This document shows positions 1,477 to 12,834 of a DNA stretch of 39,543 nt, piece by piece. How positions within the stretch are numbered: the first letter of the stretch is position 1; every line of letters begins with the position of its first letter. Below the pieces are notes generated by a model. The model made no database searches. It was not told where the DNA came from and was given only the letters and a program-made list of their open reading frames with translations. The DNA comes from an uncultured Actinomycetes bacterium (lineage in GTDB: Bacteria; Actinomycetota; Thermoleophilia; RBG-16-64-13): NCBI GenBank assembly GCA_963706025.1, contig CAVPLM010000016.1:1-39543 (forward strand). Direction: 5' to 3'. A program made the translations under genes and the position numbers.

Positions 1477-3129
1477 ATGCCGGTCACCGTCGCGCAGATT
1501 CTCGAACTCGACGTGCTCAAAGAGGCGCGCCTGCTGGCCGGCGCGGCCGGACTGGACCGCAGGGTGAGTTCGGTGACGGTGGGAGAAGTCCCCGACATCG
1601 CGGATTGGCTTTCCGGGGGAGAGATGGTCCTCTCCACCATGTACGCGGTCAGGGGCAATCTGGAGCGCCAACGGGAGTTCTGCCGGCGGGTGATGATGGC
1701 GGGCGCCGCCGCCTTGTTCGTCAAGACCACCCGCTTCGTCGAGAGCGTTCCCGCAGATGTCATCGCACTGGCCGAGAAGCGCAAGTTCCCCATCATCGAG
1801 GTCCCTCAGGGACTGCGCTGGACCCGACTCATGCAGGACGCCGCGGAAGTGATCATCAATCGCCAGGCTTCGCAGTTGGAGCAGTCGCACGCGATACACC
1901 GCAGTCTCCTGGGGGTGGTGATCCGCGGAGGAGGCTGGCAGGAATTGGCCGACGAGGCAGCTCACCTCTTGGCGAACCCGGTCGTTATCCTCGACATCTC
2001 TCTGGAAGTGTTGGCCGTGTCGGAGGGTCTTCCGCTCGCGACCGCCGACCTCGAGCTGCGACTAGGGAAGCCGGAGGTGCGCGAACGCTTCAACAGCGCG
2101 GCCCGCGAGGACAAGCTCTTCCGCGTCCAGGAAGGGGACCTCCCCACGATGTTCGTGCTACCGATCGTGGCCAGTCACAAGCGACTGGGCTACGTATGCG
2201 CTCTTAGTGACGCCCCCGACCTCTCGTCGATGGAGACGTTGGCGCTTGAGCATTCTGCCACCATAGCCGCCCTGGGGATGGCCCAGGACAGGGTGCGTTT
2301 CGAGACGGAAGTCCGTCTGAAAGGGGATTTCGTCGATGACGTCATCAACGGGGGGGAGCCGGCCGGTGATTCGCTCCTGCGCCGGGGCGCCTTCCTGGGG
2401 TGCGATCTTGGCCAGGGAGCTACGGTCATGCTCCTGGGGGTCGATGAGTTCGACGGGCTCGTCGCCCGGAAGGGCTTGGACCAGGAGGCACTCGACAAGG
2501 CCGTGGAGCGCTTCTTCTCGTTGTGCTCTCGCTTTCTGTCGTCATCCGAGCCGTCTTCGCTCGTCAGCCTCAAATCGGGACACGTGGTGATCTTCGTATG
2601 CGGCAAGACCGCCCACGATACAAACGCTTTGGGGCGTTTGGCCGCGGTGTTGCAGGGTATGGGTCAGAAGGCAGGAGGACTGAGCATCTCCATCGGCGTG
2701 GGGGGGGTCGCTCCTGACTCCGCGCAGATGGGCAGGGGCTACCAGGAAGCGCTTGTGGCTCTCAAGGTAGGGCGGAAGCTGAACGGTCCCGGAAGCGTGC
2801 TTCATTTTCGCGACGTGGGAACGTACCGGCTTCTTCTGGACATATGGGAGAGAGATCCCGATGAGGTCCGTCATCTGTACGAGGAGACCATCGGACCGGT
2901 GGATCGGTACGACCAGGCGAACGGGACCCAACTCACCCAGACCCTGCTTGTGTTCTTCAGGAACAACGAGAGCCTCACCAAGACGGCGGCCGAGCTCTAC
3001 GCTCACCGGCATACCATCCGCTATCGCCTGGAGAAGATCGCTGAGATAAGCGGGCTGAGCGCGTTCCAGACCGAGCACAAAGAGCGCCTCGGCCTGGGCT
3101 TAAAGGCTCGGAGCCTGCTTACCAGCTAA
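1477..3129 (+). CDS. PucR/CdaR-family transcriptional regulator (N-terminal PucR ligand-binding domain, GGDEF-like middle, C-terminal HTH)
   Basis: N-terminus LLAGAAGLDRRVSSVTVGEVPDIADWLSGGEMVLST and C-terminus TAAELYAHRHTIRYRLEKI are typical of this family. ATG at 1477. Confidence 0.9.
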   Translation: MPVTVAQILELDVLKEARLLAGAAGLDRRVSSVTVGEVPDIADWLSGGEMVLSTMYAVRGNLERQREFCRRVMMAGAAALFVKTTRFVESVPADVIALAEKRKFPIIEVPQGLRWTRLMQDAAEVIINRQASQLEQSHAIHRSLLGVVIRGGGWQELADEAAHLLANPVVILDISLEVLAVSEGLPLATADLELRLGKPEVRERFNSAAREDKLFRVQEGDLPTMFVLPIVASHKRLGYVCALSDAPDLSSMETLALEHSATIAALGMAQDRVRFETEVRLKGDFVDDVINGGEPAGDSLLRRGAFLGCDLGQGATVMLLGVDEFDGLVARKGLDQEALDKAVERFFSLCSRFLSSSEPSSLVSLKSGHVVIFVCGKTAHDTNALGRLAAVLQGMGQKAGGLSISIGVGGVAPDSAQMGRGYQEALVALKVGRKLNGPGSVLHFRDVGTYRLLLDIWERDPDEVRHLYEETIGPVDRYDQANGTQLTQTLLVFFRNNESLTKTAAELYAHRHTIRYRLEKIAEISGLSAFQTEHKERLGLGLKARSLLTS

Positions 3130-3137
3130 TACCGCTC

Positions 3138-3166
3138 AGCTCTGGGGCTTGTTCAGCCCCGGGGCT
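3138..3166. terminator. Stem-loop between the convergent regulator and YbjQ genes
   Basis: agctctggggct-tgttc-agccccggggct inverted repeat (with G.U pairs) between the two stop codons. Confidence 0.5.
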
Positions 3167-3495
3167 CATTCCGGCTCGACGATGGCGGCGGTACCGTAGG
3201 CCAGCACCTCGGTCATGTTGTTGCCGAGATCGGTCGCGTCGTACTTCACGGCTATGACGGCATTGGCGCCCATTTGCTCGGCATGCTGCACCATCCAGGA
3301 GAAGGCTTCGGCCCGGGTCTGCTCGCACAGCTCGATGTACTCGGGGATCTGACCTCCACCCAGGGTGCGCAGGGAGGCCGTGATCTGGCTGCCTATCCAG
3401 CGCGCCCGTACCGTGACTCCGCGTACGACTCCGAGGGTGTGGACCACCCGGTAGCCGGGAATCGTCAGGCCCGTGGTGGTCAAGCGGTGATCCAT
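3166..3495 (-). CDS. YbjQ/UPF0145 family protein
   Basis: TTT..IPGYRVVHTLGVVRG...GGQIPEY...GANAVIAVKYD...EVLAYGTA signature, with an AAAGGAG RBS upstream. Confidence 0.9.
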   Translation of the reverse strand: MDHRLTTTGLTIPGYRVVHTLGVVRGVTVRARWIGSQITASLRTLGGGQIPEYIELCEQTRAEAFSWMVQHAEQMGANAVIAVKYDATDLGNNMTEVLAYGTAAIVEPE

Positions 3496-3510
3496 GATGT
3501 CTCCTTTCGT

Positions 3511-3920
3511 GTGTTGGGACTACGCACCGCTTCCGGCTGCGCGATAGCGTATCGCGACTCCTCCACCGGTGCGTAGCCCCAACACCCGCATGTCGGTCGG
3601 AACGGATAGGTGTGACTTTAGCGCTTATCGGAGCTGCATACCGGTTCCGGCTGCGCGATAGCATATCGCGACTCCTCCACCGGCATGCGCGCCCGTAACC
3701 GGTGTCTCAGTACCAGATGGCAGAGGGATGGGGCATCGCGACTCCTCCACCGGCGCGTAGCGCCATCACCCGCATGTCGGTCGGAACGGATAGGTGTGAC
3801 TTTAGCGCTAATCGGAGCTGCATACCGGTTCCGGCTGCGCGATAGCATATCGCGACTCCTCCACCGGCACGTCAGCCCCGTCGCCACTGTATCGGTCCAA
3901 GCAGGTGTGACTTTGGCGCG
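3511..3920. repeat. Intergenic cluster of nested palindromic direct repeats (REP/BIME-like)
   Basis: Core atcgcgactcctccaccgg occurs at 3551, 3665, 3735 and 3849. A ~133 bp block is duplicated at a 184 bp period. The cgcgata-gcR-tatcgcg hairpin occurs three times and aggtgtgacttt three times. Confidence 0.9.
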
Positions 3921-3952
3921 AAAGGCCCCCCGGCGAACGCCGCGGGGCCTTT
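3921..3952. terminator. Intrinsic terminator-like hairpin downstream of glnA
   Basis: aaaggcccc...ggggccttt stem with A/T tails. Confidence 0.6.
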
Positions 3953-4023
3953 CTGAGCTTGTGCACCTGGCTGGAAGGACCCGCCCGGCGGCGGGGGCCG
4001 CCGGGCGGACAGCAGGGTGGCTG

Positions 4024-5355
4024 TCAGAGGATCGGGAGGTACCGCGATATCTCGTAAGGGTTGATGAGGGTCTTGTACTCGTCCCATTCCGCCCATTTGT
4101 TGCGGATGAGGTAGTCGCATACGTGGTTGCCCAGGGCCTCACGCACGAAGCTCGACTTCTCGAACTCCTTGATCGCCTGATAGAGGTCCTCAGGCAGAGA
4201 GTCGATGCCGGCAGCAGCGCGCTCCGCCTCGGTCATCTCGTAGATGTTGTTGCTCGCCTCCGGAGGAAGCTCCATCCCTTTCTCTATGCCATCCAGGCCG
4301 GCGGCCAGCATGGCGGCGAAGGCCAGGTAGGGGTTGCAGGCAGGGTCGGGGTTGCGTAGCTCCACCCGGGTGGCGTTCTCTTTGCCCGGTTTGTACAGGG
4401 GCACGCGCACCATGGCCGAACGGTTCCGGCGTGACCAACAGATGTAGACCGGGGCCTCGTAGCCCGGCACCAGCCGCTTGTAGGAGTTGATCCACTGGTT
4501 GGTGACCAGGGCGATCTCCTTGACGTGAGCAAGGAGACCGGCCACGTACGACTTGCCGACTTTCGACAGGTTGTACTCGTCGCTCGCGTCGAAGAAGGCG
4601 TTGCGATCGCCCTTGAACAACGACTGGTGTACGTGCATCCCCGAGCCGTTCACTCCGAACATGGGCTTGGGCATGAAGGTGGCGTAAACCCCCTGGGCCT
4701 GGGCGATCTCCTTGACCGTGAGGCGGTAGGTCATGACCTGGTCGGCCATGGTCGTCACGTCTTTGAAGCGGAGGTCGATCTCGTGCTGGGAAGGAGCGAC
4801 TTCGTGGTGCGAGTACTCCACCTGGATGCCGAGAGCGTGCAGGGCGTTGATGGTGTCGCGCCGCAGATCACTACCTGCGTCCAGAGTGGTGAGGTCGAAA
4901 TAACCGCCTTGGTCGAGCACGTCGGTGCCGAGGCTGTCCCGAAAGTAGAAGAACTCCAGCTCCGGCCCGACGTTCATGGTGTAGCCCATGGCTTCGGCCT
5001 TGGCCACCACGTTCTTCAGCACGTTGCGGGGATCGCCGTCATAAGGTTCCCCAGAGGGCTGCTTGATGTCGCAGAACATGCGGGCGGTGCCGCCGGCACC
5101 GGCCCGCCAGGGCAGCACGGCGAAGGTGCTCGGATCGGGCCAGGCCACCATGTCGGACTCCTCGATGCGGGCGAAGCCCTCGATCGAGGAACCATCGAAG
5201 CCCATGCCCTCTTCGAACGCGCCCTCGAGCTCCGCGGGGGTGACGGCGAAGCTCTTGAGGAAGCCGAGGACATCCGTGAACCAGAAGCGGATGAACTTGA
5301 TCTGTTTCTCTTCGACGATCCGGATGACGTCTTCCTTGGTCAGTTTCTCCGCCAT
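4024..5355 (-). CDS. glnA: Glutamine synthetase type I
   Basis: FDGSSIEGFARIEESD, VGPELEFF, HHEVAPSQHEI, FMPKPMFGVNGSGMHVHQSL, YKRLVPGYEAP, NRSAMVRVP and RVELRNPD motifs. An AAAGGAG RBS precedes ATG 5355. Confidence 0.96.
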   Translation of the reverse strand: MAEKLTKEDVIRIVEEKQIKFIRFWFTDVLGFLKSFAVTPAELEGAFEEGMGFDGSSIEGFARIEESDMVAWPDPSTFAVLPWRAGAGGTARMFCDIKQPSGEPYDGDPRNVLKNVVAKAEAMGYTMNVGPELEFFYFRDSLGTDVLDQGGYFDLTTLDAGSDLRRDTINALHALGIQVEYSHHEVAPSQHEIDLRFKDVTTMADQVMTYRLTVKEIAQAQGVYATFMPKPMFGVNGSGMHVHQSLFKGDRNAFFDASDEYNLSKVGKSYVAGLLAHVKEIALVTNQWINSYKRLVPGYEAPVYICWSRRNRSAMVRVPLYKPGKENATRVELRNPDPACNPYLAFAAMLAAGLDGIEKGMELPPEASNNIYEMTEAERAAAGIDSLPEDLYQAIKEFEKSSFVREALGNHVCDYLIRNKWAEWDEYKTLINPYEISRYLPIL

Positions 5356-5406
5356 CAACTGCTCCTTTCACAGTAGGCGCGTGGGTGGACTTCGTGTTTG
5401 TGGACG

Positions 5407-6303
5407 CTAGTAGACATACAGCCTGCCATATGGCCTCGAGGTATAGGGATAGATCTTGACGAAAGGCGCCTCCAAGATCGGCTCTGGGTCCAGGTTCATC
5501 ACCCGGGAGTAGTCGGTGACGATGTCCCGCAGGCGCGCTCGGTCGGCCTCGTCCGGCTCGGCGATGCGCACTTCCTTGCCCAGTTGATGCTCGGCCACCG
5601 CGCCTCGGATGTACATCACGCCCGCGTGCATCCCGGTGCCTACGTACGAGCCGACCACGCGGCCGCCGTCATCGCCAAGACCCAGCACCACTATCTCGCC
5701 GCCCGCCATGTATTCGCCCAGGAAGTCGCGCGCGAAGCCACCCACGACGATGAGCGGCCGGCTATCGCCGTAGGCCTTCATGTGGATGCCCACCCGATAG
5801 CCCACGTTGCCGCGCACGTACACCGAACCGCCCCGCATGCCGTAGCCGACCACGTCGCCCGCGTTGCCGTTGACGATGACCAGGCCCGAGTTCATGGTAT
5901 TCGCCACGCCGTCCTGAGCGTTGTCGTTCACCACCAGGGTGAGACCGTTCATGAAGGCGGCCAGGTCGTTGCCAGGGACGCCGTTGATGGTCAGGGTCAC
6001 TCCCGGGAAGGCGAGTCCGGTGCCGATGTAGCGCTGTCCGATTATGCCGTCGAGCACCACTTCGGTGGCGCCCCGTTCGATCTCCTCGCGTATCTGCTCG
6101 TTCAGGGTCTTGTAGTAGACCCCCCTGCCGTCGATGCGCGCGCGGCGCCCTCGGCGAGTGGCCGCACCCCGGTCGGTCCCCGGCTGGCCGGCCGCGATGC
6201 GGGCCGGCTCGATGCCGGTGGGGCCTCTGCGGGCCGGTCCGGTGGGTACCCTCCTGACCGTCGCGGAATCGGGGGCCACAGTCCTGTCCTCGTAGGCCGT
6301 CAT
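5407..6303 (-). CDS. Glutamate synthase GXGXG (GltB C-terminal-type) subunit
   Basis: GQRYIGTG, GVPGNDLAAFMNG, GDVVGYGMRGG, GYRVGIHMK and FLGEYMAGG beta-helix repeats. Confidence 0.88.
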   Translation of the reverse strand: MTAYEDRTVAPDSATVRRVPTGPARRGPTGIEPARIAAGQPGTDRGAATRRGRRARIDGRGVYYKTLNEQIREEIERGATEVVLDGIIGQRYIGTGLAFPGVTLTINGVPGNDLAAFMNGLTLVVNDNAQDGVANTMNSGLVIVNGNAGDVVGYGMRGGSVYVRGNVGYRVGIHMKAYGDSRPLIVVGGFARDFLGEYMAGGEIVVLGLGDDGGRVVGSYVGTGMHAGVMYIRGAVAEHQLGKEVRIAEPDEADRARLRDIVTDYSRVMNLDPEPILEAPFVKIYPYTSRPYGRLYVY

Positions 6304-6316
6304 CGGACGAAGCCCC

Positions 6317-7837
6317 TCACAGGCCGGCGGGCTTGACGCCCAGGATGTCGAGGGTCATCTTGTCCAGTCCCAAGCCGCGGAGCCTCTCCCGGCTGCCGCG
6401 CAGGCTCTCGATGGCGTTCACTCCCAGCGCTCCCAACACCTCGGCGAGCTCGTGGGTCCAGGCGTTGACCAGATTGACCACCTGCGAGGCGCCCCACTCC
6501 GGGTCCAACCGGCGGGTCAGCTCCGGCCGCTGGGTGCAGATGCCCCACGAACAGCTGCCGGTGTGGCACTTCTGACAGACGTGGCAGCCCAGGGCTACCA
6601 GAGCCGCGGTGCCGATGGCGCAGGCATCCGCTCCCAGAGCGATGGCCTTGGCCACGTCGGCCGACTGGCGGATGCCGCCCGCCGCCACGATCGACGCCCG
6701 GTTGCGGATGCCCTCGTCGCGCAGCTGCTGGTCGACGGTCGCGATGGCGATCTCGACGGGGATACCCACGTGGTCGCGGATGATGGTGGGGGAGGCCCCG
6801 GTACCGCCGCGGAAGCCGTCCAGATAGATGATGTCGGCCCCGGCTCTGACCACTCCCGAGGCGATGGCCGCCACGTTGTGCACGCAGGCTATCTTCACCG
6901 AGATGGGCTTGTAGCCGGTCGCCTCTTTGAGGGCGTAGATCAGCTGGCGCAGGTCTTCGATGGAGTAGATGTCGTGGTGCGGGGCAGGGGAGAGGGCGTC
7001 GGTGCCCTGCGGGATCATCCGGGTGATGGAGACCTCGTAGTCGATCTTCTCCCCGGGGAGGTGACCGCCGATGCCGGGCTTGGCGCCCTGGCCGATCTTG
7101 ATCTCGACGGCGGCGCCGGCCTGCAGGTAGCTCGAGTCGACCCCGAAGCGTCCCGAGGCACACTGGACGATGATGTGATCTTGATAGGGCTCCAGGTCGG
7201 CGTGCAGGCCACCCTCGCCGGTGTTCATGAAGGTTCCCAGCTCGGCCGCCGCCATGGCGATAGAGCGGTGGACGTTGAGCGACACCGACCCGTAGCTCAT
7301 GCCCCCGAACATGATGGGAGTCTCGAGCTGGAGTTGCCGGTCGAGTTCGGTGAGCAGGCGCAGGCCGCCGCCCACTCGATCCGCTGCCACCTCGAGCAGA
7401 TCGGGCTTGCGGCCCAGGAAGGTGCGCATCTCCATGGGCTCCCGCAGCGGGTCGATGGAGGGGTTGGTCACCTGGCAGGCATCCAGCAGAAGATGATCGA
7501 AGATGCGCAGATACGGCTTGTCGTTGCCCATGCCGGTGAGCTGCACGCCGCCGGTCTCGGCCTGCTTCCAGATGGCCTTGATCAGGTCGGGCGACATGCT
7601 GTCGGAGTGCTTGAAGGCCAAGTCGTTCTTCTTGATGCTGATGGCCCCGCCGGGACAGTAGGTCACGCAGCGATGGCAGGCGGAGCACTTGCCGTGGTCG
7701 GGCAGGGGTCGCCGTTCCACCTCGTCGAACGCGTACACGTTCCAGCCGCACTGCCGAACGCAGCGGCCGCACTGAAGGCAGGCCTCCTTGTCGATGACCA
7801 CCCGGAACTCGGAAGGAATGAAGGTCGTGAGCGCCAT
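6317..7837 (-). CDS. Glutamate synthase FMN-binding subunit with N-terminal 2x[4Fe-4S] ferredoxin (archaeal-type GltB2)
   Basis: CLQCGRCVRQC and CSACHRCVTYCP motifs, then MSYGSVS, NTGEGG, EIKIGQGAKPGIGGHLPGEK, SPAPHHDIYSIEDL and CHVCQKCHTGSC. It has its own likely start (GGGGTGGTGTG-ATG 7837) although it is in frame with the upstream GATase. Confidence 0.9.
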   Translation of the reverse strand: MALTTFIPSEFRVVIDKEACLQCGRCVRQCGWNVYAFDEVERRPLPDHGKCSACHRCVTYCPGGAISIKKNDLAFKHSDSMSPDLIKAIWKQAETGGVQLTGMGNDKPYLRIFDHLLLDACQVTNPSIDPLREPMEMRTFLGRKPDLLEVAADRVGGGLRLLTELDRQLQLETPIMFGGMSYGSVSLNVHRSIAMAAAELGTFMNTGEGGLHADLEPYQDHIIVQCASGRFGVDSSYLQAGAAVEIKIGQGAKPGIGGHLPGEKIDYEVSITRMIPQGTDALSPAPHHDIYSIEDLRQLIYALKEATGYKPISVKIACVHNVAAIASGVVRAGADIIYLDGFRGGTGASPTIIRDHVGIPVEIAIATVDQQLRDEGIRNRASIVAAGGIRQSADVAKAIALGADACAIGTAALVALGCHVCQKCHTGSCSWGICTQRPELTRRLDPEWGASQVVNLVNAWTHELAEVLGALGVNAIESLRGSRERLRGLGLDKMTLDILGVKPAGL

Positions 7838-9124
7838 CACACCACCCCGGACACGGTGGCCTGCCGGGCCGCCCGCCTCTGTCCGGCGCTCCGATGGGCC
7901 TGGGCGATGGCCTTCTGCCGGCCCTTCTCGCTCGACCCGGGCCACCACCGGCTCGCCTGCCAGGGGCATCCAGCTCTCTTCCGGATGGGGGCAGATCTCG
8001 CGGATGGCCGATTCCTCGCTGGCCACGTAGACGATGTCGCCGTCCCGCGCGGCCACCAGCGGGCGCAGCTTGATGCGGTCGTTGAGAGCCACCATGCCGT
8101 CGCTCATCCCCAGGACCACGGCGAAGGGGCCGTTGAGGAGGGCGGGTCCGTATACCATCCGCAACGCCGTGAACAGCCTGCGCTGCTCCTCGGGCATCAG
8201 GTCGATGTCCCTCCAGAAGGGACTGGCCAAAGCCTTGCACGCTATCTCCACGGGCAGTCCGTGCCGCCGGAGCATGAGATCGAACAGGTAGGTGACCACC
8301 TCTGTGTCGGTCTTGAGCGAGCACTTGTAGCCGAACATCTCCAGGTAGCGCTCGTTGATGCCGTAGGAACTGATCTCGCCGTTGTGGACGATGGAGTAGT
8401 CGAGCAGGGTGAAGGGATGAGCCCCGCCCCACCAGCCGGGGGTATTGGTGGGAAAGCGGCCGTGGCCGGTCCAGGTCCAACCCTGGTATTCGTCGATGCG
8501 GAAGAACTCCCCGATCTCCTCCGGGAACCCCACACCTTTGAACGCGCCCATGTTCTTGCCCGAAGAGGCGACGAAGGAGCCATCCACATAGGTGTTGATG
8601 TCCATGACCGCGTGGACCACGTAATCCTCGGCGCTCAGTTGGGTCTCGTGCAGCCGCTCCTCCGCGATATCCAGGAAGTAGCGCCAGAGGATGGGCTCAT
8701 CCTCGATGCCGCGGATAGGCTTGGTGGGGATGGGTTCGTCCATGACCACGCGGAAGTGCTTCTTGAGATAGAACTCGGTGTCTTCCTTGGCCAGATCGTC
8801 GTTGTAGAGCAGATGGAAGCAGAACAGGTGGGGCAGTTCGGGGTAGATGCCGTAGCCGGCGAACCCCCCGCCCAGCCCGTTGCCGCGGTCGTGCATGGAG
8901 GCCATGCTGCGTAGGGCCAGCTCGCCGCTCATCCGGGCGCCCGATTGATCGCACACCCCCATCAGGCCGCAGCCGCCGAGGATCCGCTGCTCGGCTTCCT
9001 CCCTGTAGCTCGGCCGGGGCGCGAAATGGCGCCCAAGCTCGGACCGGGCCACGGGCGCGGCCGCTCCGATCCGGCCGCTGTTACCGCTGTCGAGGCCGCG
9101 CGGTCTCATCCCCGGTCCTGTCAT
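7837..9124 (-). CDS. Class II glutamine amidotransferase subunit of split glutamate synthase (GltB1-type)
   Basis: GGCG, DRGNGLGGGFAGYGIYP, HGRFPTNTPGWWGGAHPF, HNGEISSYG and DRIKLRPL motifs. ATG 9124 overlaps the upstream TGA (ATGA). The 3' end is uncertain because it reads through into the FMN subunit. Confidence 0.85.
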
Positions 9125-10453
9125 TCCCGGTCCTCTGTCTCTTCGAGGATCGTCCTCAGTTCGTCGAAGCCGCTCCCGGGAAGGGAGGGGAGACCCAGCT
9201 TTTCTCGGGCGGTGGACCTGGGCGTGCCCAGCATCCCGGTGTCCGCGAAGGTCTGATAGTTGGAGCGGACGGCTACCGGGACTTTGCCCTCTTCCTGGGC
9301 CAACCACTTGAGTCTCTGGAACACGTCCGCCATGCCCATGCGGCTGTGGCAGTGCTCGTAACAGGTCAGGCAGTCGGAGCAGCGCCAGATATCACCGCGC
9401 TCGAGGATCCCTTCCAGATCGCCGGCCAGAAGCTCCCCCATGATGGCCGAAGGCAGGAACCGGTCGTCGGAGCGGGCGACAGGGCAGTCGTCGTCGCAGG
9501 CCTTGCAGGCGGCGCAGGTCTGCAGCTCGGCCAGGTCGAAATCGCGGGCGATAGCCGCTCGCTGAGCGAGCTTGAGCGGCCACTTCTCCAGGAACGGCGC
9601 CACGCTCACCCGGTGCATGTCCAGCCCCAGCTCACTCGGATCCATGCCCAAGGCCAGAGCGATCAACTCCGTGATGTAGAAGACCGGGACGCCTGCCTCT
9701 CCGGCCGCGCGCAGCTGGGTGGCCTGGTTGAGGTCGAACTGGAGGAAGCACGATGGGCACGAGACCACCAGGGCGTCGGCCCCTTGGTCGCGGATATCGG
9801 AGAGCTTCCGCTCGCACATGTCCAGAGAGGCCTGGCGCTCTCCCACCCGGTCCAGGGCGTTGCCGCAGCAGTCCATCTTGGTCTCATAGTCGACCACGGT
9901 CGCTCCCAGGGCCCGTACCAACTGCTCGAACTTGGTAGGCGCGGTGGGACTATCCCAACGGATGGCGGGGCTGGGACGGAGCAGGTGGCAGCCGTAGTGC
10001 ACGGCGATCCGCATGCCCCAGAGAGGCTTGACCACGCGCTTGCTCAGGGCGGCCGGTCCCAGGTCTTCGCTCAGCCATTCCACCAAGTGCCAGACGTCCG
10101 CGTCACCCCTGTACTGGACCCCGCTCGGGGCCAGACGGCGGTTCACGCTCTCGTGCAGCCGCCAATCGACCTTGAGGGCGGAGATCACCGACTTGAACGT
10201 GGAGTAGCAGCCGTTGCACGGGGTGAGCAGGGGATGGCCTTGACGCTTCGGCCACGGCCAGATTGCGGGCCGCCGTCAGGTAGTAGGCCTCCTCGTCCAC
10301 GGCTTTGACCAAGGTCGTCTCCGGGCAACAGGTGAAACCATCGGCGTCCACCAGGTCGATCCCCAGCTCGCGAACCACCAGGCGGGTGGCCTTTTCAATG
10401 AAAGGGAAGCGGGCGGGGATGGTGCAGCCCCAAAACATGGTCATCCGTCTCAT
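9121..10453 (-). CDS. Heterodisulfide reductase subunit B-like (two CCG domains) fused to a C-terminal HdrC-like 2x[4Fe-4S] domain; frameshift near 10240
   Basis: FWGC..FTCCP..(TPCNGC) and HYGCH..DCCG..SCPSC CCG motifs, then CAACKACDDDCP and CSDCLTCYEHC. Joined from ORFs 10103-10453 and 9121-10188. Confidence 0.82.
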
Positions 10454-10620
10454 AGCGCGCTCACCACCCTGTGTCGCTACCAGTCCGCCCTTGCCGGCCC
10501 CGCCTCAACGGGACGCAGGGAGAATAGCAACAGAAGAGCGTGTGTGGTCTATCCAGGTGGCCTATCTTTAGCCGGTCTGGATGTACAGTTGGATAGACCG
10601 CAGGCCGGCGGCGCCCCCGG

Positions 10621-11619
10621 TCAATCGCGCTCGAACGGTATCCCCAGACTTCGCGGTTGGACCACCCGCATCGAGCGGAGCACGCGGGCTACCACCCGCC
10701 GGGATCGTTCAGGCAGGGCGGCCAGCACCTTCTCCACCCATTCGGCGTTGCCGATGTTCACCAGCAAGAGCGCGAGGATCATGAGGGGGAAGGGCGCCAC
10801 CTGCAGGACCTGGGACGGGGATGCCCTGCAGGTCCGGCTGAAGCACCAGGCTCAGCCACTGCAGGAACCCGAACAGATAGGCACCGAGGGCGACGCGGAC
10901 AGGGCTCCACGCCCCGAAGATGACGATGGCGAGAACGATCCACCCCAGTCCGTCCAGCCCCGAGATCGTCCCCTTCCAGCCGGCCTTGACACTGAGCGAG
11001 AACATGGGACCGGCCAGCCCGACCAGCGCGCCTCCCAGAGCGGTGTAGAAATAGCGGATGACGTTGACCCGGGCCCCGCGGGCGAAGGCGGCCTCCGGAC
11101 GCTCTCCCACAGCCCGCAGAACCAGACCGGGCCGAGTGCGGAAGATCCACCAAGAGGCCACGAAGATCAACGCGAAGCTGAAGTAGGTCATGACGTCGTG
11201 CTTGAAGAAGAGCGTGCCCAGGATGGGTATGTTCTCCAGTCCGGGTATGGGCCGGAGCGAGAGCGTGGGGCCCTGTTCGCCCATATAGGGATTGCCCAGG
11301 AAGTAGGCCAGATCCCGGCAGAAGAGCGTGAGCACGAAGCCCACGGCCACCTGCGATTGACGCAGGGTGATGCTGCCGAAGGCTACCACCAGGGCCACCG
11401 CAGCCCCGATGACGCATCCGGCCAGGAAGCCAGCACGAGGCTGTCGGTGGTGAGCGCCACCACGAAGCTGCCCATGGCCGAGAGGAGTATGGTCCCGTTC
11501 ACCGACAGGTTGATGATCCCGGCCCTCTCGGTCAGGGTCTCGCCGATGGCGGCCACCACGATGGGCGCCGCCGTCGCCAGCACTCCCGCCAGACCTATGA
11601 GCCAGGTGGTGGCGTCCAC
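10621..11619 (-). CDS. ABC transporter permease (BMP/nucleoside-type, CUT2), frameshifted
   Basis: GETLTERAGIINLSVNG, RTRPGLVLRAVGERP and GLGWIVLAIVIFG segments lie in different frames. The reconstructed C-terminus ...GIPFERD ends at TGA 10621. Confidence 0.8.
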
Positions 11620-11623
11620 GGCG

Positions 11624-12834
11624 CTACCCTGGGCTTCCCGGATTAGCGGTGCCCACGCCCAGGCTGGTCGGCAAGTGGACCTCCGCCGGCTCCAGCAGCG
11701 CTTCCCCTCCCGTCGACGCCCCGGGCGGCGTCACCGACGCGTCGGCGGCCCGCTTGCGGCGCAGGTAGCGCTGCCGCGCCCCCTCGACCAGGATCACGAA
11801 GAGCACCAACGCGCCCTGCAGCACTCCCGCGAGAGTGGAGTCGAGCTTGAGGACGATAGGCAACTGGATGCTGCCTATGTTGAGGGCGGCGAAGAACAGC
11901 GCCACCGGGGCCACCCAGATGGCTCGGTACAGGATGAGCATCCCCACCATCAGGCCCAAGAACCCGTAGCCGCTGGAGATGGAGGGGATGAGACGGTGAT
12001 AGACGCTCGTCACCTGGATGGCCCCCGCCAGACCGGCCAGCCCGCCGCAGAAGAGGAAGGCCAGCAGACCATATTGCCAGGTAGGTACGCCCAGGAGAAA
12101 GGCGGCCCGGTTGTTGAGGCCCACCGCCTTCAGGCGCAGACCGAAGTAGGTGCGCTCGAGGAGGATGTAGACGACTATCACCGCCAGGATACCCAGCCCG
12201 AGCGACCACAGGCTGAGGCGCAGGCCGCCCACCGTGGGCAGAGACAGCTGGTCGGGGAAAGGTTCGGTGCCGCTCATCGAGCCGATCCCGGGTCGCTTCC
12301 AGGGTCCGAAGATGAGCCAGAGGGTGAGAGCCGATGGCCACGTAGTTGAGCCCCAGGCCCCCGAAGATCTCGTTGACTCCGCCGAAGGTCTTCAGGATGC
12401 CGGCCAGCGTCGGCCCACAGGCCTCCGCCGACGACGCCGGCGATCATGGCCAGCACGATGATGAGCGCGGGGGAGAGGGCCGTGTCCTGCAGCAGGCGCA
12501 AGACCCAGGTGGTGAGCACCGCGCCCAGGACGATCTGTCCTTCCACCCCGATGTTCCACAGGCCGGCGGCGAAGGTGATGAGGACGCCGGCCGCCGCCAG
12601 CAGGAGCGGGACCCAGGCCACCAGGACGTTCGAGAAGCTGCGAGCGAACCAACAGCCCCCTTGGCGATCTGCACGTAGGCCTCAAACGGTGGGGCTCCCG
12701 CCACCAGGAGGATGAGACTGGTGATCAGGAAAGCCAGTACCAGGGCGCCCAACTGTATGCCCAGATTGATCCAGGTCTGGCGGGTGAAATGGGCGCGGCC
12801 CCGGGCGTCCTGGGGAGAGTCCGCGGTCTCGCAT
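11624..12834 (-). CDS. ABC transporter permease (BMP/nucleoside-type), frameshifted
   Basis: AGLWNIGVEGQ, RTYFGLRLKAVGLN and GGLAGLAGAIQV...GYGF segments are spread over several frames. The start is approximate. Confidence 0.78.

What the first reader, a model, noticed from the sequence alone, without database searches (positions are those of the whole stretch)
4024..10453. HdrB-HdrC fusion translationally coupled to a split glutamate synthase and glnA, with no GltD
Seen: the operon order is HdrBC-like, GATase, ferredoxin-FMN subunit, GXGXG subunit, glnA. The HdrBC stop overlaps the GATase start (ATGA at 9121-9124). No NAD(P)H-binding GltD or FrhB-like subunit lies in the cluster. Established: GOGAT needs an electron-input module (GltD, ferredoxin, or an F420-linked subunit), and HdrB CCG domains perform thiol/disulfide chemistry at non-cubane Fe-S clusters. 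Inference: a glutamate synthase linked to an Hdr-like module, possibly thiol/disulfide-coupled or connected to an HdrA encoded elsewhere. The B-before-C single-chain arrangement is also notable.
Basis: partly seen in the sequence, partly recalled or inferred. Interest (0 to 1): 0.72.

Follow-up and report, generated by a model that had tools for sequence, protein, structure and literature searches.

The report
Glutamate synthase operon led by HdrBC
A group of anaerobic actinobacteria always places a fused heterodisulfide-reductase-like iron-sulfur protein directly in front of their split glutamate synthase, where related bacteria carry an NAD(P)H-type flavoprotein, which points to a nitrogen-assimilation enzyme fed by an electron donor not yet described for it.

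Summary
The gene order is real: hdrBC, GATase, ferredoxin-FMN subunit, GXGXG subunit, glnA, all on the minus strand. The ATGA stop/start overlap at 9121-9124 is real, and no GltD or FrhB lies in the cluster.

One, near 10246-10248, breaks HdrBC. One, near 7932-7934, merges GATase and FMN subunit into a 996-aa ORF. Contigs from three independent studies lack both bases, so they are probably assembly errors.

The HdrB-then-HdrC fusion (443 aa when intact) keeps all 18 cluster cysteines.
- **Synteny:** in 80 actinobacterial loci it is followed by GATase in 73 of 73, FMN subunit in 63 of 63 and GXGXG in 60 of 60 loci with enough DNA. Start/stop coupling holds in 70 of 73.
- **Co-occurrence:** in 401 genomes of the phylum, the 17 with the fusion are the 17 with the best-matching FMN subunits.
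- **Sister clusters:** these carry a ferredoxin plus NAD(P)H-type flavoprotein pair, or a GltD-like protein, instead.
- **HdrA:** one family has the operon, but neither HdrA (4 genomes) nor MvhD (3) was found.

Best reading: HdrBC is this GOGAT's electron-input subunit. The donor (thiol, quinol or other) is unknown. My literature searches found no description.

The parts
9121..10453 (-). hdrBC: a single-chain HdrB (two CCG domains) followed by an HdrC-like 2x[4Fe-4S] domain, 443 aa when intact. The window copy is broken by one extra base near 10246-10248.
   Evidence: Pfam finds CCG twice plus Fer4_8. The frames are shown. The intact C15 copy is P0003. All 10 CCG cysteines and 8 ferredoxin cysteines are invariant in 16 sequences. 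HdrB in the PDB matches at E 8e-63. The fold has TM 0.91-0.92 to HdrB. Run contigs lack the extra base.
7837..9124 (-). gltB1-like class II glutamine amidotransferase subunit with an N-terminal propeptide before the conserved GGCGL cysteine. Its ATG 9124-9122 overlaps the hdrBC stop. One extra base near 7932-7934 fuses it in frame to the next gene in the window. The true stop is TGA 7839-7837.
   Evidence: Pfam finds GATase_2, GATase_6 and GATase_7. Relatives end ...SGVV* at the FMN start. The extra base is absent in C15 and in the contigs of X2 and X7. A start codon lies within -7..+5 nt of the hdrBC stop in 70 of 73 loci, with an ATGA overlap in 40 of 73.
6317..7837 (-). gltB2-like subunit: an N-terminal 2x[4Fe-4S] ferredoxin domain plus the FMN/2-oxoglutarate (Glu_synthase) domain, which has a further four-cysteine motif.
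   Evidence: Pfam gives Glu_synthase 466.8 bits and Fer4 families at residues 503-557 of the 996-aa ORF. C20/23/26/30, C51/54/57/61 and C418/421/424/429 are invariant in 21 sequences.
5407..6303 (-). gltB3-like GXGXG subunit, the C-terminal domain of the GOGAT large subunit.
   Evidence: Pfam gives GXGXG 108.3 bits. It follows the FMN subunit in 60 of 60 loci with enough DNA.
4024..5358 (-). glnA, type I glutamine synthetase.
   Evidence: TIGR00653 scores 521.6 bits (cut-off 429.15). It is below the cut-off for type III/GmaS-like GS, 321.3 against 469.6. It lies within 10 kb downstream in 46 of 54 loci and directly adjacent in 28 of 54.

Best explanation
This is a nitrogen-assimilation operon, hdrBC-gltB1-gltB2-gltB3-glnA. 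The HdrB-HdrC fusion is a dedicated redox subunit of an archaeal-type, three-subunit glutamate synthase.

Proposed path (inferred):
1. A two-electron donor is oxidised at the two non-cubane [4Fe-4S] clusters of the HdrB part.
2. Electrons pass through the two cubane clusters of the HdrC-like part.
3. They move to the two clusters of the ferredoxin domain at the N-terminus of GltB2.
4. They continue to the four-cysteine cluster and FMN of GltB2.
5. There 2-iminoglutarate, formed from 2-oxoglutarate and ammonia channelled from the GATase subunit, is reduced to glutamate.

HdrBC occupies the slot that a ferredoxin plus NAD(P)H-type flavoprotein pair, or a GltD-like protein, fills in sister clusters. 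The donor specificity has therefore probably changed.

The most likely donor class is a thiol or dithiol, by analogy with thiol:fumarate reductase. I put this at about 0.3. Menaquinol is the main alternative.

Shown: gene content, intact cofactor motifs, fold, conserved order and coupling, co-occurrence, module replacement. Inferred: physical complex, direction of electron flow, donor.
For: 1. **Synteny.** Among the best 80 of 246 confirmed genome loci, hdrBC is followed on the same strand by GATase in 73 of 73, FMN subunit in 63 of 63 and GXGXG in 60 of 60 loci with enough downstream DNA. glnA lies within 10 kb in 46 of 54.
2. **Coupling.** A GATase-frame start codon lies within -7..+5 nt of the hdrBC stop in 70 of 73 loci, with an ATGA overlap in 40 of 73. 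The GATase stop and FMN start lie within -5..+12 nt in 62 of 63.
3. **Co-occurrence.** In a 401-genome sample of the phylum, 17 genomes hold a full-length fusion. These are exactly the 17 with the highest FMN-subunit scores, at least 911 bits. The other 64 genomes with an FMN-subunit match at E<=1e-100 score 852 bits or less and lack the fusion. In 16 of the 17 the two genes lie within about 2.5 kb on one contig. In G389 hdrBC sits 660 nt from a contig end.
4. **Module replacement.** I fetched 10 fusion-less clusters from 9 families.
   - 7 carry a Pyr_redox_2 plus Rubredoxin_C flavoprotein, 6 of them next to a scanned Fer4_11 protein.
   - 1 carries a GltD-like Fer4_20 plus Pyr_redox_2 protein.
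   - 2 had nothing found.
   - Homologues of these input proteins are absent from the 80 hdrBC loci, apart from one weak hit about 9 kb upstream in L017.
5. **Tree.** On an FMN-subunit tree the 21 hdrBC-linked rows form one side of a branch (support 82/79), next to the GltD-like-linked row (100/100).
6. **Cofactor sites.** C10, C42, C43, C79, C82 and C155, C195, C196, C232, C235 are invariant, as are two CxxCxxCxxxC motifs. The HdrB fold has TM 0.91-0.92, rmsd about 2 A and 37-38% identity.
7. **Only GOGAT.** The genome has no other bona fide GOGAT. PF01645 hits are this locus, its C15 duplicate and one 57.6-bit hit.
8. **Regulation.** A PdtaS-like kinase and an ANTAR response regulator have homologues in 37 and 40 of the 80 loci. 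In the loci scanned they lie upstream of hdrBC, which fits a nitrogen regulon.
Against: - No experiment or structure shows that the proteins bind.
- GltB2 has its own ferredoxin domain and could take electrons from free ferredoxin. 2 of 10 sister clusters have no input gene in cis, so a partner may not be obligatory.
- The fusion scores below NCBIfam's equivalog cut-offs for HdrB (265.1 against 345.15) and HdrC (46.9 against 160). Its substrate need not be a disulfide or thiol.
- Its second-best family is SdhE, the methylmenaquinol:fumarate reductase anchor (162.1 bits), which points to a quinol instead.
- Six GltD-like Fer4_20 hits exist elsewhere in the genome, so an NAD(P)H subunit acting in trans is not excluded.
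- Related genomes are not independent. The counts come from two or three lineages, and the branch uniting the hdrBC-linked FMN subunits has only 82/79 support.
- The loci and the G-handle genomes come from overlapping collections, so they may count some genomes twice.
Confidence: 0.6

Rival explanations
1. The GOGAT is simply ferredoxin-dependent through the ferredoxin domain of GltB2. HdrBC is a co-regulated but separate enzyme, for example a disulfide reductase or redox-balancing protein needed during nitrogen assimilation, or an accessory rather than the electron entry point.
For: GltB2 carries two complete 4Fe-4S motifs of its own. 2 of 10 sister clusters have no redox partner in cis. No binding has been shown.
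Against: Adjacency holds in 73 of 73 loci, and stop/start coupling to the GATase gene in 70 of 73. The fusion maps one-to-one onto a distinct FMN-subunit clade, 17 of 17. It also occupies the slot of NAD(P)H input modules in sister clusters.
Confidence: 0.2
2. HdrBC is the GOGAT input subunit, but the donor is menaquinol. The CCG domains would act as in SdhE of methylmenaquinol:fumarate reductase, or as in GlpC/GlcF-type proteins.
For: The second-best NCBIfam family is SdhE, NF042965, at 162.1 bits. The futalosine-pathway marker PF02621 is present in G000, G220, G272 and G319.
Against: PF02621 was not found in G233, rated 99% complete. MenD stays below its cut-off in all 5 genomes tested. The best match by far is soluble HdrB, at 265 bits and E 8e-63 in the PDB. 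From recall, the menaquinone potential is close to that of the GOGAT couple, so the driving force would be small.
Confidence: 0.12
3. HdrBC docks onto an HdrA/MvhD module encoded elsewhere. GOGAT would then be fed by, or form the exergonic branch of, a flavin-based electron-bifurcating Hdr complex.
For: The window's genome has an HdrA2-like gene (748.7 bits to NF040770) next to its own HdrB and an MvhD-like gene at C3:441-446 kb. FlpD is present in 7 of 10 other tested genomes with the operon.
Against: Family f59 has the operon, but MvhD was not found in 3 of 3 genomes tested. HdrA matches in 4 genomes did not exceed 23-26 bits. One of these genomes is a single contig rated 100% complete. The genome's HdrA already sits beside its own HdrB gene; an adjacent HdrC was not confirmed.
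Confidence: 0.06
4. The cluster is not a GOGAT/GS pair. It would be the N-methylglutamate pathway, with MgsABC built from GOGAT-like domains plus the GS-like GmaS.
For: The gene order GATase-like, FMN-like, GXGXG-like, GS-like matches mgsABC-gmaS. That cluster is recalled; the lead came from the search listing of PMC6237917.
Against: The GS passes the type I GlnA model and fails the type III model. The FMN subunit has three invariant four-cysteine motifs, which fit a redox enzyme. No N-methylglutamate dehydrogenase genes were seen among the conserved neighbours.
Confidence: 0.02
5. In this particular organism, hdrBC is a decaying pseudogene and GATase-FMN is a real fusion.
For: The window sequence as given has both frameshifts. 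X8 showed no deletion at 10247.
Against: Both extra bases are absent from the C15 copy and from contigs of runs from three studies. The two contigs differ by 19 one-base indels over about 7.2 kb, which fits a noisy consensus.
Confidence: 0.05

Closest known systems
HdrB and HdrC of methanogen HdrABC heterodisulfide reductase (PDB 5odc, 7bkb, 8rvu)
   Same: Residues 5-291 align along the whole of HdrB at E 8e-63 with 37-38% identity, and the fold has TM 0.91-0.92. Both CCG motifs are complete. Residues 303-426 align with the two-cluster part of HdrC.
   Different: B and C are one chain in the order B then C. No hdrA or mvhD lies in the cluster, and neither was found in one family that has the operon. 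The scores are below the NCBIfam equivalog cut-offs. From recall, the hosts are bacteria not known to make CoM or CoB. The neighbour is a GOGAT.
Thiol:fumarate reductase TfrAB of Methanothermobacter (function recalled; family NF004898)
   Same: Same working principle as proposed here. A CCG-domain iron-sulfur subunit takes electrons from thiols and passes them to a flavoenzyme that reduces a central metabolite.
   Different: The score is only 55.6 bits against a cut-off of 385. From recall, TfrB places SdhB-like clusters before the CCG domains. The acceptor enzyme is unrelated.
Archaeal-type split glutamate synthase and its variants with other input subunits (GltD in NADPH-GOGAT; FrhB-like subunit in the proposed F420-dependent GOGAT, PMC3087415 and PMC9012536, passages read)
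   Same: There are three separate subunits for the GATase, FMN and GXGXG domains, with a ferredoxin domain on the FMN subunit. A separately encoded module presumably sets the donor.
   Different: Here the extra subunit is an HdrB-HdrC fusion. It is not GltD, not FrhB-like, and not the Fer4_11 plus Pyr_redox_2 pair of sister actinobacterial clusters.
HdrD, GlcF and GlpC-type fused CCG proteins
   Same: Ferredoxin-like and CCG domains lie in one chain.
   Different: Those proteins have the Fe-S motifs N-terminal to the CCG domains. So do the other seven fused CCG ORFs of this genome, two pairs of them contig duplicates. Only the GOGAT-linked protein is B then C.

Membership tests
HdrB (CoB-CoM heterodisulfide reductase subunit B, TIGR03288) | Two CCG motifs (CXnCCXnCXXC) providing ten cysteines for two non-cubane [4Fe-4S] clusters | tested here: met
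   C10, C42, C43, C79, C82 and C155, C195, C196, C232, C235 are invariant in 16 sequences. Pfam finds CCG twice.
HdrB (CoB-CoM heterodisulfide reductase subunit B, TIGR03288) | Score above the curated equivalog cut-off | tested here: not met
   265.1 bits against a cut-off of 345.15.
HdrB (CoB-CoM heterodisulfide reductase subunit B, TIGR03288) | HdrB fold | tested here: met
   The AlphaFold2 model has pLDDT 84. Foldseek gives TM 0.91-0.92 normalised to the target and rmsd 2.0-2.3 A to HdrB chains.
HdrB (CoB-CoM heterodisulfide reductase subunit B, TIGR03288) | Works with HdrA (and MvhD) in an HdrABC complex | tested here: not met
   No hdrA or mvhD lies in any of the clusters. In family f59, FlpD was not found in 3 of 3 genomes and HdrA not beyond 23-26-bit hits in 4 genomes.
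HdrB (CoB-CoM heterodisulfide reductase subunit B, TIGR03288) | Reduces CoM-S-S-CoB | not testable with these tools
   This needs an enzyme assay.
HdrC (TIGR03290) | Two CxxCxxCxxxC(P) motifs for two [4Fe-4S] clusters, and a score above the cut-off | tested here: inconclusive
   The motifs are met: C313/316/319/323 and C358/361/364/368 are invariant. The score is 46.9 bits against a cut-off of 160. TM is about 0.6 to HdrC chains.
Archaeal-type split glutamate synthase | Separate GATase, FMN (Glu_synthase) and GXGXG subunits, with a ferredoxin domain on the FMN subunit | tested here: met
   Pfam finds GATase_2/6/7, Glu_synthase at 466.8 bits, Fer4 families and GXGXG at 108.3 bits. The genes are separate in relatives. 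In the window, GATase and FMN are merged only by the extra base.
Archaeal-type split glutamate synthase | Glutamine- and 2-oxoglutarate-dependent glutamate formation | not testable with these tools
   This needs an enzyme assay.
NADPH-GOGAT (GltBD) | GltD subunit (Fer4_20 plus Pyr_redox_2) encoded with the large subunit | tested here: not met
   None lies in the window cluster. No homologue was found in the 80 loci with a GltD-like query. Six Fer4_20 hits lie elsewhere in the genome.
F420-dependent GOGAT (proposed) | FrhB-like subunit in the cluster | tested here: not met
   The five cluster proteins and their neighbours gave no FrhB-type Pfam family.
N-methylglutamate pathway (MgsABC plus GmaS) | The GS-like gene is of the type III/GmaS kind | tested here: not met
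   TIGR00653 type I is passed (521.6 against 429.15). TIGR03105 is failed (321.3 against 469.6).
Thiol:fumarate reductase TfrB (NF004898) | Score above the family cut-off | tested here: not met
   55.6 bits against a cut-off of 385. It is an analogy of mechanism only.

The most novel reading that the evidence does not exclude
These actinobacteria have a new class of glutamate synthase. Its reducing power comes from oxidation of a thiol or dithiol at HdrB-type non-cubane iron-sulfur clusters, not from NAD(P)H, ferredoxin or F420. It would be a thiol:2-oxoglutarate/glutamine reductase, analogous to thiol:fumarate reductase. Nitrogen assimilation would then be tied directly to the cell's thiol/disulfide pool.
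Probability: 0.3. Interest if true: 0.8.

Novelty: new variant of a known kind. Interest (0 to 1): 0.62.

Why it matters
Glutamate synthase is the main entry of ammonia into biomass, and its classes are defined by electron donor.
- The donor of the archaeal-type split enzyme has never been settled biochemically (recalled). The review PMC8097209, in the passages I read, only notes that such ORFs exist.
- Within one phylum, the same three-subunit core is paired with at least three different input modules. One of them is an HdrB-HdrC fusion.
- This gives a natural experiment for testing how donor specificity is set.
- It also gives a tractable, HdrA-free setting for studying what non-methanogen HdrB proteins oxidise or reduce, which is an open question (recalled).
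- Database annotations as 'heterodisulfide reductase subunit B/C' would mislead metabolic reconstructions of these sediment and subsurface bacteria.

Tried and rejected
**Complex prediction.** HdrBC (alignment A1) was folded against the FMN subunit (A2). The result was no verdict (score 0.07, mark 0.32, controls not run). I do not use it either way.

**Expression.** No RNA holder was listed among the 20 runs, so nothing can be said about expression.

**Other blanks.**
- Rfam at gathering threshold gave 0 matches over the whole window.
- The promoter/terminator scan of 3400-10800 found 0 promoter-like sites and 1 terminator-like site on the plus strand. This is fewer than in shuffles and not informative.
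- Tandem Repeats Finder found nothing in 3100-4100. The repeat finder did find repeats there.
- The menaquinone marker searches could not exclude a quinol donor.

**N-methylglutamate pathway.** Considered and rejected.

**Literature.**
- I ran four full-text searches: heterodisulfide reductase, glutamate synthase, HdrB, glutamine synthetase; archaeal-type glutamate synthase, gltB1, gltB3 and others; HdrBC, HdrCB, CCG domain, GOGAT, glutamate synthase; OPB41, Anaerosomat, heterodisulfide reductase, glutamate synthase.
- I read passages only, via 'find', of PMC12054007, PMC9012536, PMC7325909, PMC3087415, PMC9888227, PMC7282089 and PMC8097209.
- None describes an HdrBC-GOGAT cluster.
- Subscription journals and supplements were not searchable, so 'not in print' holds for these searches only.

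**Limits on distribution.** Only the best 80 of 246 confirmed genome loci were returned. The other 166 were not examined. I ran no survey of phyla other than Actinomycetota.

Full report
**What is in the window**

The finding region holds five coding regions on the minus strand:
- glnA, 4024-5358
- a GXGXG-domain gene, 5407-6303
- one 996-aa ORF, 6317-9307, that contains a class II amidotransferase part, a 4Fe-4S dicluster and a Glu_synthase FMN domain (466.8 bits)
- two ORFs in different frames, 9121-10188 and 10103-10453, that together carry two CCG domains and a Fer4_8 domain

TGA 9123-9121 closes the Hdr frame and ATG 9124-9122 opens the amidotransferase frame. The neighbours carry no GltD or FrhB-like domain. 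They are ABC-transporter genes upstream, and a PucR-like regulator and a CitMHS_2 transporter downstream.

The Hdr frame changes between '...NLAVAEA' and 'QGHPLLTPCNGCY...'. The amidotransferase frame slides into the FMN frame about 100 nt before the FMN start.

The same assembly holds a second, 94.1%-identical copy of the locus on contig C15.
- The two copies differ by 392 substitutions, 19 one-base indels and one two-base indel over 7,227 aligned columns.
- C15 lacks one base at window position about 10248, which gives an intact 443-aa HdrB-HdrC protein (P0003).
- C15 also lacks one base at about 7933, which restores the amidotransferase C-terminus seen in relatives.
- C15 has its own frame-breaking deletions elsewhere in the GOGAT genes.

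Contigs of four public runs from four studies were laid on 7700-10500. The only indels listed lie at these two places: one base left out at each, called at 7932 or 7934 and at 10246 or 10247.
- Near 10246-10247: X1 47.2 of 47.3 depth, X2 14.8 of 14.8, X7 11.8 of 18.9.
- Near 7932-7934: X2 12.6 of 12.6, X7 6.46 of 6.46.
- X8 showed no deletion at 10247 and had no depth in the bin around 7932-7934.

I conclude that the two extra bases are most likely consensus errors. The real gene set is then five separate genes. The amidotransferase stop (TGA 7839-7837) overlaps the FMN-subunit ATG (7837-7835) by one base.

**The Hdr-like protein**

The intact form is a single chain of HdrB followed by an HdrC-like domain.
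- Against solved structures, residues 5-291 match the whole of HdrB (E 8e-63) and residues 303-426 match the cluster-binding part of HdrC.
- An AlphaFold2 model (pLDDT 84) superposes on HdrB chains with TM 0.91-0.92 and rmsd about 2 A.
- In an alignment of 16 family members with 55-76% identity to the query, all ten cysteines of the two CCG motifs and all eight of the two CxxCxxCxxxC motifs are invariant.
- NCBIfam scores stay below the equivalog cut-offs: HdrB 265.1 against 345.15, HdrC 46.9 against 160. The next families are SdhE (162.1 bits) and, far lower, TfrB (55.6 bits).
- The family is large: 1,153 proteins at E<=0.001 among the 8,000 candidates scored. Sources annotate it as heterodisulfide reductase subunit B or B/C.
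- Within this genome the B-then-C order is unique. The other seven fused CCG ORFs, two pairs of them contig duplicates, have their Fe-S motifs N-terminal to the CCG domains.

**Is the adjacency conserved?**

A scan of one genome per species found 246 confirmed relatives, of which the best 80 loci were returned. All carry actinobacterial labels or fall inside that clade.

| Downstream feature, same strand | Loci with it / loci with enough DNA |
|---|---|
| Amidotransferase | 73 / 73 |
| FMN subunit | 63 / 63 |
| GXGXG subunit | 60 / 60 |
| glnA within 10 kb | 46 / 54 |
| glnA directly adjacent | 28 / 54 |

The gene junctions are tight.
- A start codon in the amidotransferase frame lies within -7 to +5 nt of the hdrBC stop in 70 of 73 loci. 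It is the same ATGA overlap as in the window in 40 of 73.
- The amidotransferase stop and FMN start lie within -5 to +12 nt in 62 of 63.
- The amidotransferase has a variable N-terminal propeptide ending in a conserved I-x-G-G-C-G-L motif. From recall, other GOGATs are likewise processed to expose the catalytic cysteine.

**Co-occurrence and module replacement**

In a 401-genome sample of the phylum, 17 genomes have a full-length fusion. 81 have a ferredoxin-type FMN subunit at E<=1e-100.
- The 17 are exactly the 17 top-scoring FMN subunits (at least 911 bits). The next best scores 852 bits and its genome has no fusion.
- The profile was built from hdrBC-linked sequences, so the score gap is partly circular.
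- A tree of 31 FMN subunits nonetheless puts the 21 hdrBC-linked rows on one side of a branch (82/79). Their nearest neighbour is a GltD-like-linked row (100/100).

I fetched ten fusion-less clusters from nine families.
- Seven carry a Pyr_redox_2 plus Rubredoxin_C flavoprotein inside or at the head of the cluster. Six of these sit next to a Fer4_11 protein that I scanned.
- One carries a GltD-like Fer4_20 plus Pyr_redox_2 protein between the amidotransferase and the FMN subunit.
- Two have nothing recognisable.

Queries made from these input proteins find no homologue in the 80 hdrBC loci, except one weak hit about 9 kb upstream in L017. The same three-subunit core is thus combined with alternative redox modules, and HdrBC is one of them.

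**HdrA and other partners**

- The window's genome has an HdrA2-like gene with its own HdrB gene and an MvhD-like gene at C3:441-446 kb.
- It has six GltD-like Fer4_20 hits elsewhere.
- It has no second GOGAT.
- Family f59 has the operon. MvhD/FlpD was not found in 3 of 3 genomes tested. With the HdrA query, no match beyond 23-26-bit Fe-S hits was found in 4 genomes, one a single contig rated 100% complete.
- The other seven operon-bearing genomes tested all have FlpD.

A link to HdrA therefore cannot be the general mechanism.

**How it most likely works**

Shown: the cofactor-binding motifs, the fold, the conserved order, the coupling, the co-occurrence and the module swap.

Inferred: HdrBC binds the GOGAT and feeds it electrons. 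The path would run from the HdrB non-cubane clusters through the HdrC-like clusters to the GltB2 ferredoxin domain and on to FMN.

The donor is open.
- A thiol or dithiol is my first choice. HdrB is by far the best match, and thiol:fumarate reductase is a precedent for thiols driving a flavoenzyme through a CCG subunit.
- From recall, thiol/disulfide couples (about -140 to -260 mV) lie well below the GOGAT couple. Menaquinol (about -74 mV) would be near equilibrium.
- The menaquinone markers did not decide this. PF02621 is present in 4 of 5 genomes tested, and MenD is below its cut-off in all 5.

In the Coriobacteriia-type loci scanned, a PdtaS-like kinase and an ANTAR regulator lie upstream of hdrBC. 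Homologues are present in 37 and 40 of the 80 loci. This fits a nitrogen regulon.

**Rivals**

- Ferredoxin may reduce GltB2 directly, with HdrBC as an accessory or separate enzyme (0.2).
- The donor may be a quinol (0.12).
- HdrA may act in trans (0.06).
- The locus may be a real pseudogene in this strain (0.05).
- The N-methylglutamate pathway is rejected (0.02), because glnA passes the type I model and fails the type III model.

**Novelty**

Four full-text searches and the passages I read gave no description of an HdrBC-linked GOGAT. Published donor classes in those passages are NAD(P)H and ferredoxin, plus a proposed F420-dependent form with an FrhB-like subunit.

I rate this a new variant of a known kind. 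The enzyme core is known. The input module is new for it, conserved across at least two actinobacterial classes, and untested experimentally.

Noticed in passing
G000:C15:12030-19130 (L001) versus window 3500-10700: The assembly holds a second copy of the whole locus at 94.1% identity. It differs by 19 one-base indels, one two-base indel and a 114-nt indel. Other contig pairs (C21 and C3) also give duplicate hits. The genome is rated 7.3% contaminated, so it probably mixes two strains or carries noisy contigs.
   Followed up: partly
window 3535-3694 and 3719-3878: Two direct copies of a 160-nt unit (91% identical), with shorter internal repeats and a 39-nt inverted repeat at 3508-3588. They lie in the intergenic region between glnA and the PucR-like regulator gene. 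The C15 copy lacks 114 nt here.
   Followed up: partly
window 10709-12621, minus strand: The ABC-transporter permease genes upstream of hdrBC appear as fragments (BPD_transp_2 profile positions 70-247 and 137-268 in separate ORFs). This suggests further frameshift errors in the contig.
   Followed up: no
L037:6930-9092 and L072:1954-4009: In Coriobacteriia-type loci, a PdtaS-like histidine kinase (GAF_PdtaS, HisKA_2) and an ANTAR response regulator lie upstream of hdrBC. Homologues occur in 37 and 40 of the 80 loci. The leader RNA that an ANTAR protein would bind was not looked for.
   Followed up: partly
L083:9588-11460, L085:6197-7940, L088:4157-6142, L089:9711-11445, L090:5164-6898, L091:5175-6892, L082:5996-7852: Sister actinobacterial split-GOGAT clusters carry a Fer4_11 protein plus a Pyr_redox_2/Rubredoxin_C flavoprotein, or in L082 a GltD-like protein with extra Fer4 motifs. 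Their position varies: before the amidotransferase, between amidotransferase and FMN subunit, or between FMN subunit and GXGXG.
   Followed up: partly
window 6124-6303 (first 60 residues of the GXGXG subunit): The Thermoleophilia-type GXGXG subunits have an N-terminal extension of about 60 residues with a conserved VPTGPARRGPTGIEP-like motif. The Coriobacteriia-type subunits lack it; their matches begin at residue 62.
   Followed up: no
L002:18745-21015: A close relative has further Glu_synthase-domain ORFs (285.8 and 63.1 bits) 2.3-4.5 kb downstream of glnA. The window has no counterpart within its bounds.
   Followed up: no
L087:4965-7115: One fusion-less sister cluster is followed by a type III glutamine synthetase (GSIII_N, Gln-synt_C-ter) instead of type I glnA.
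   Followed up: no
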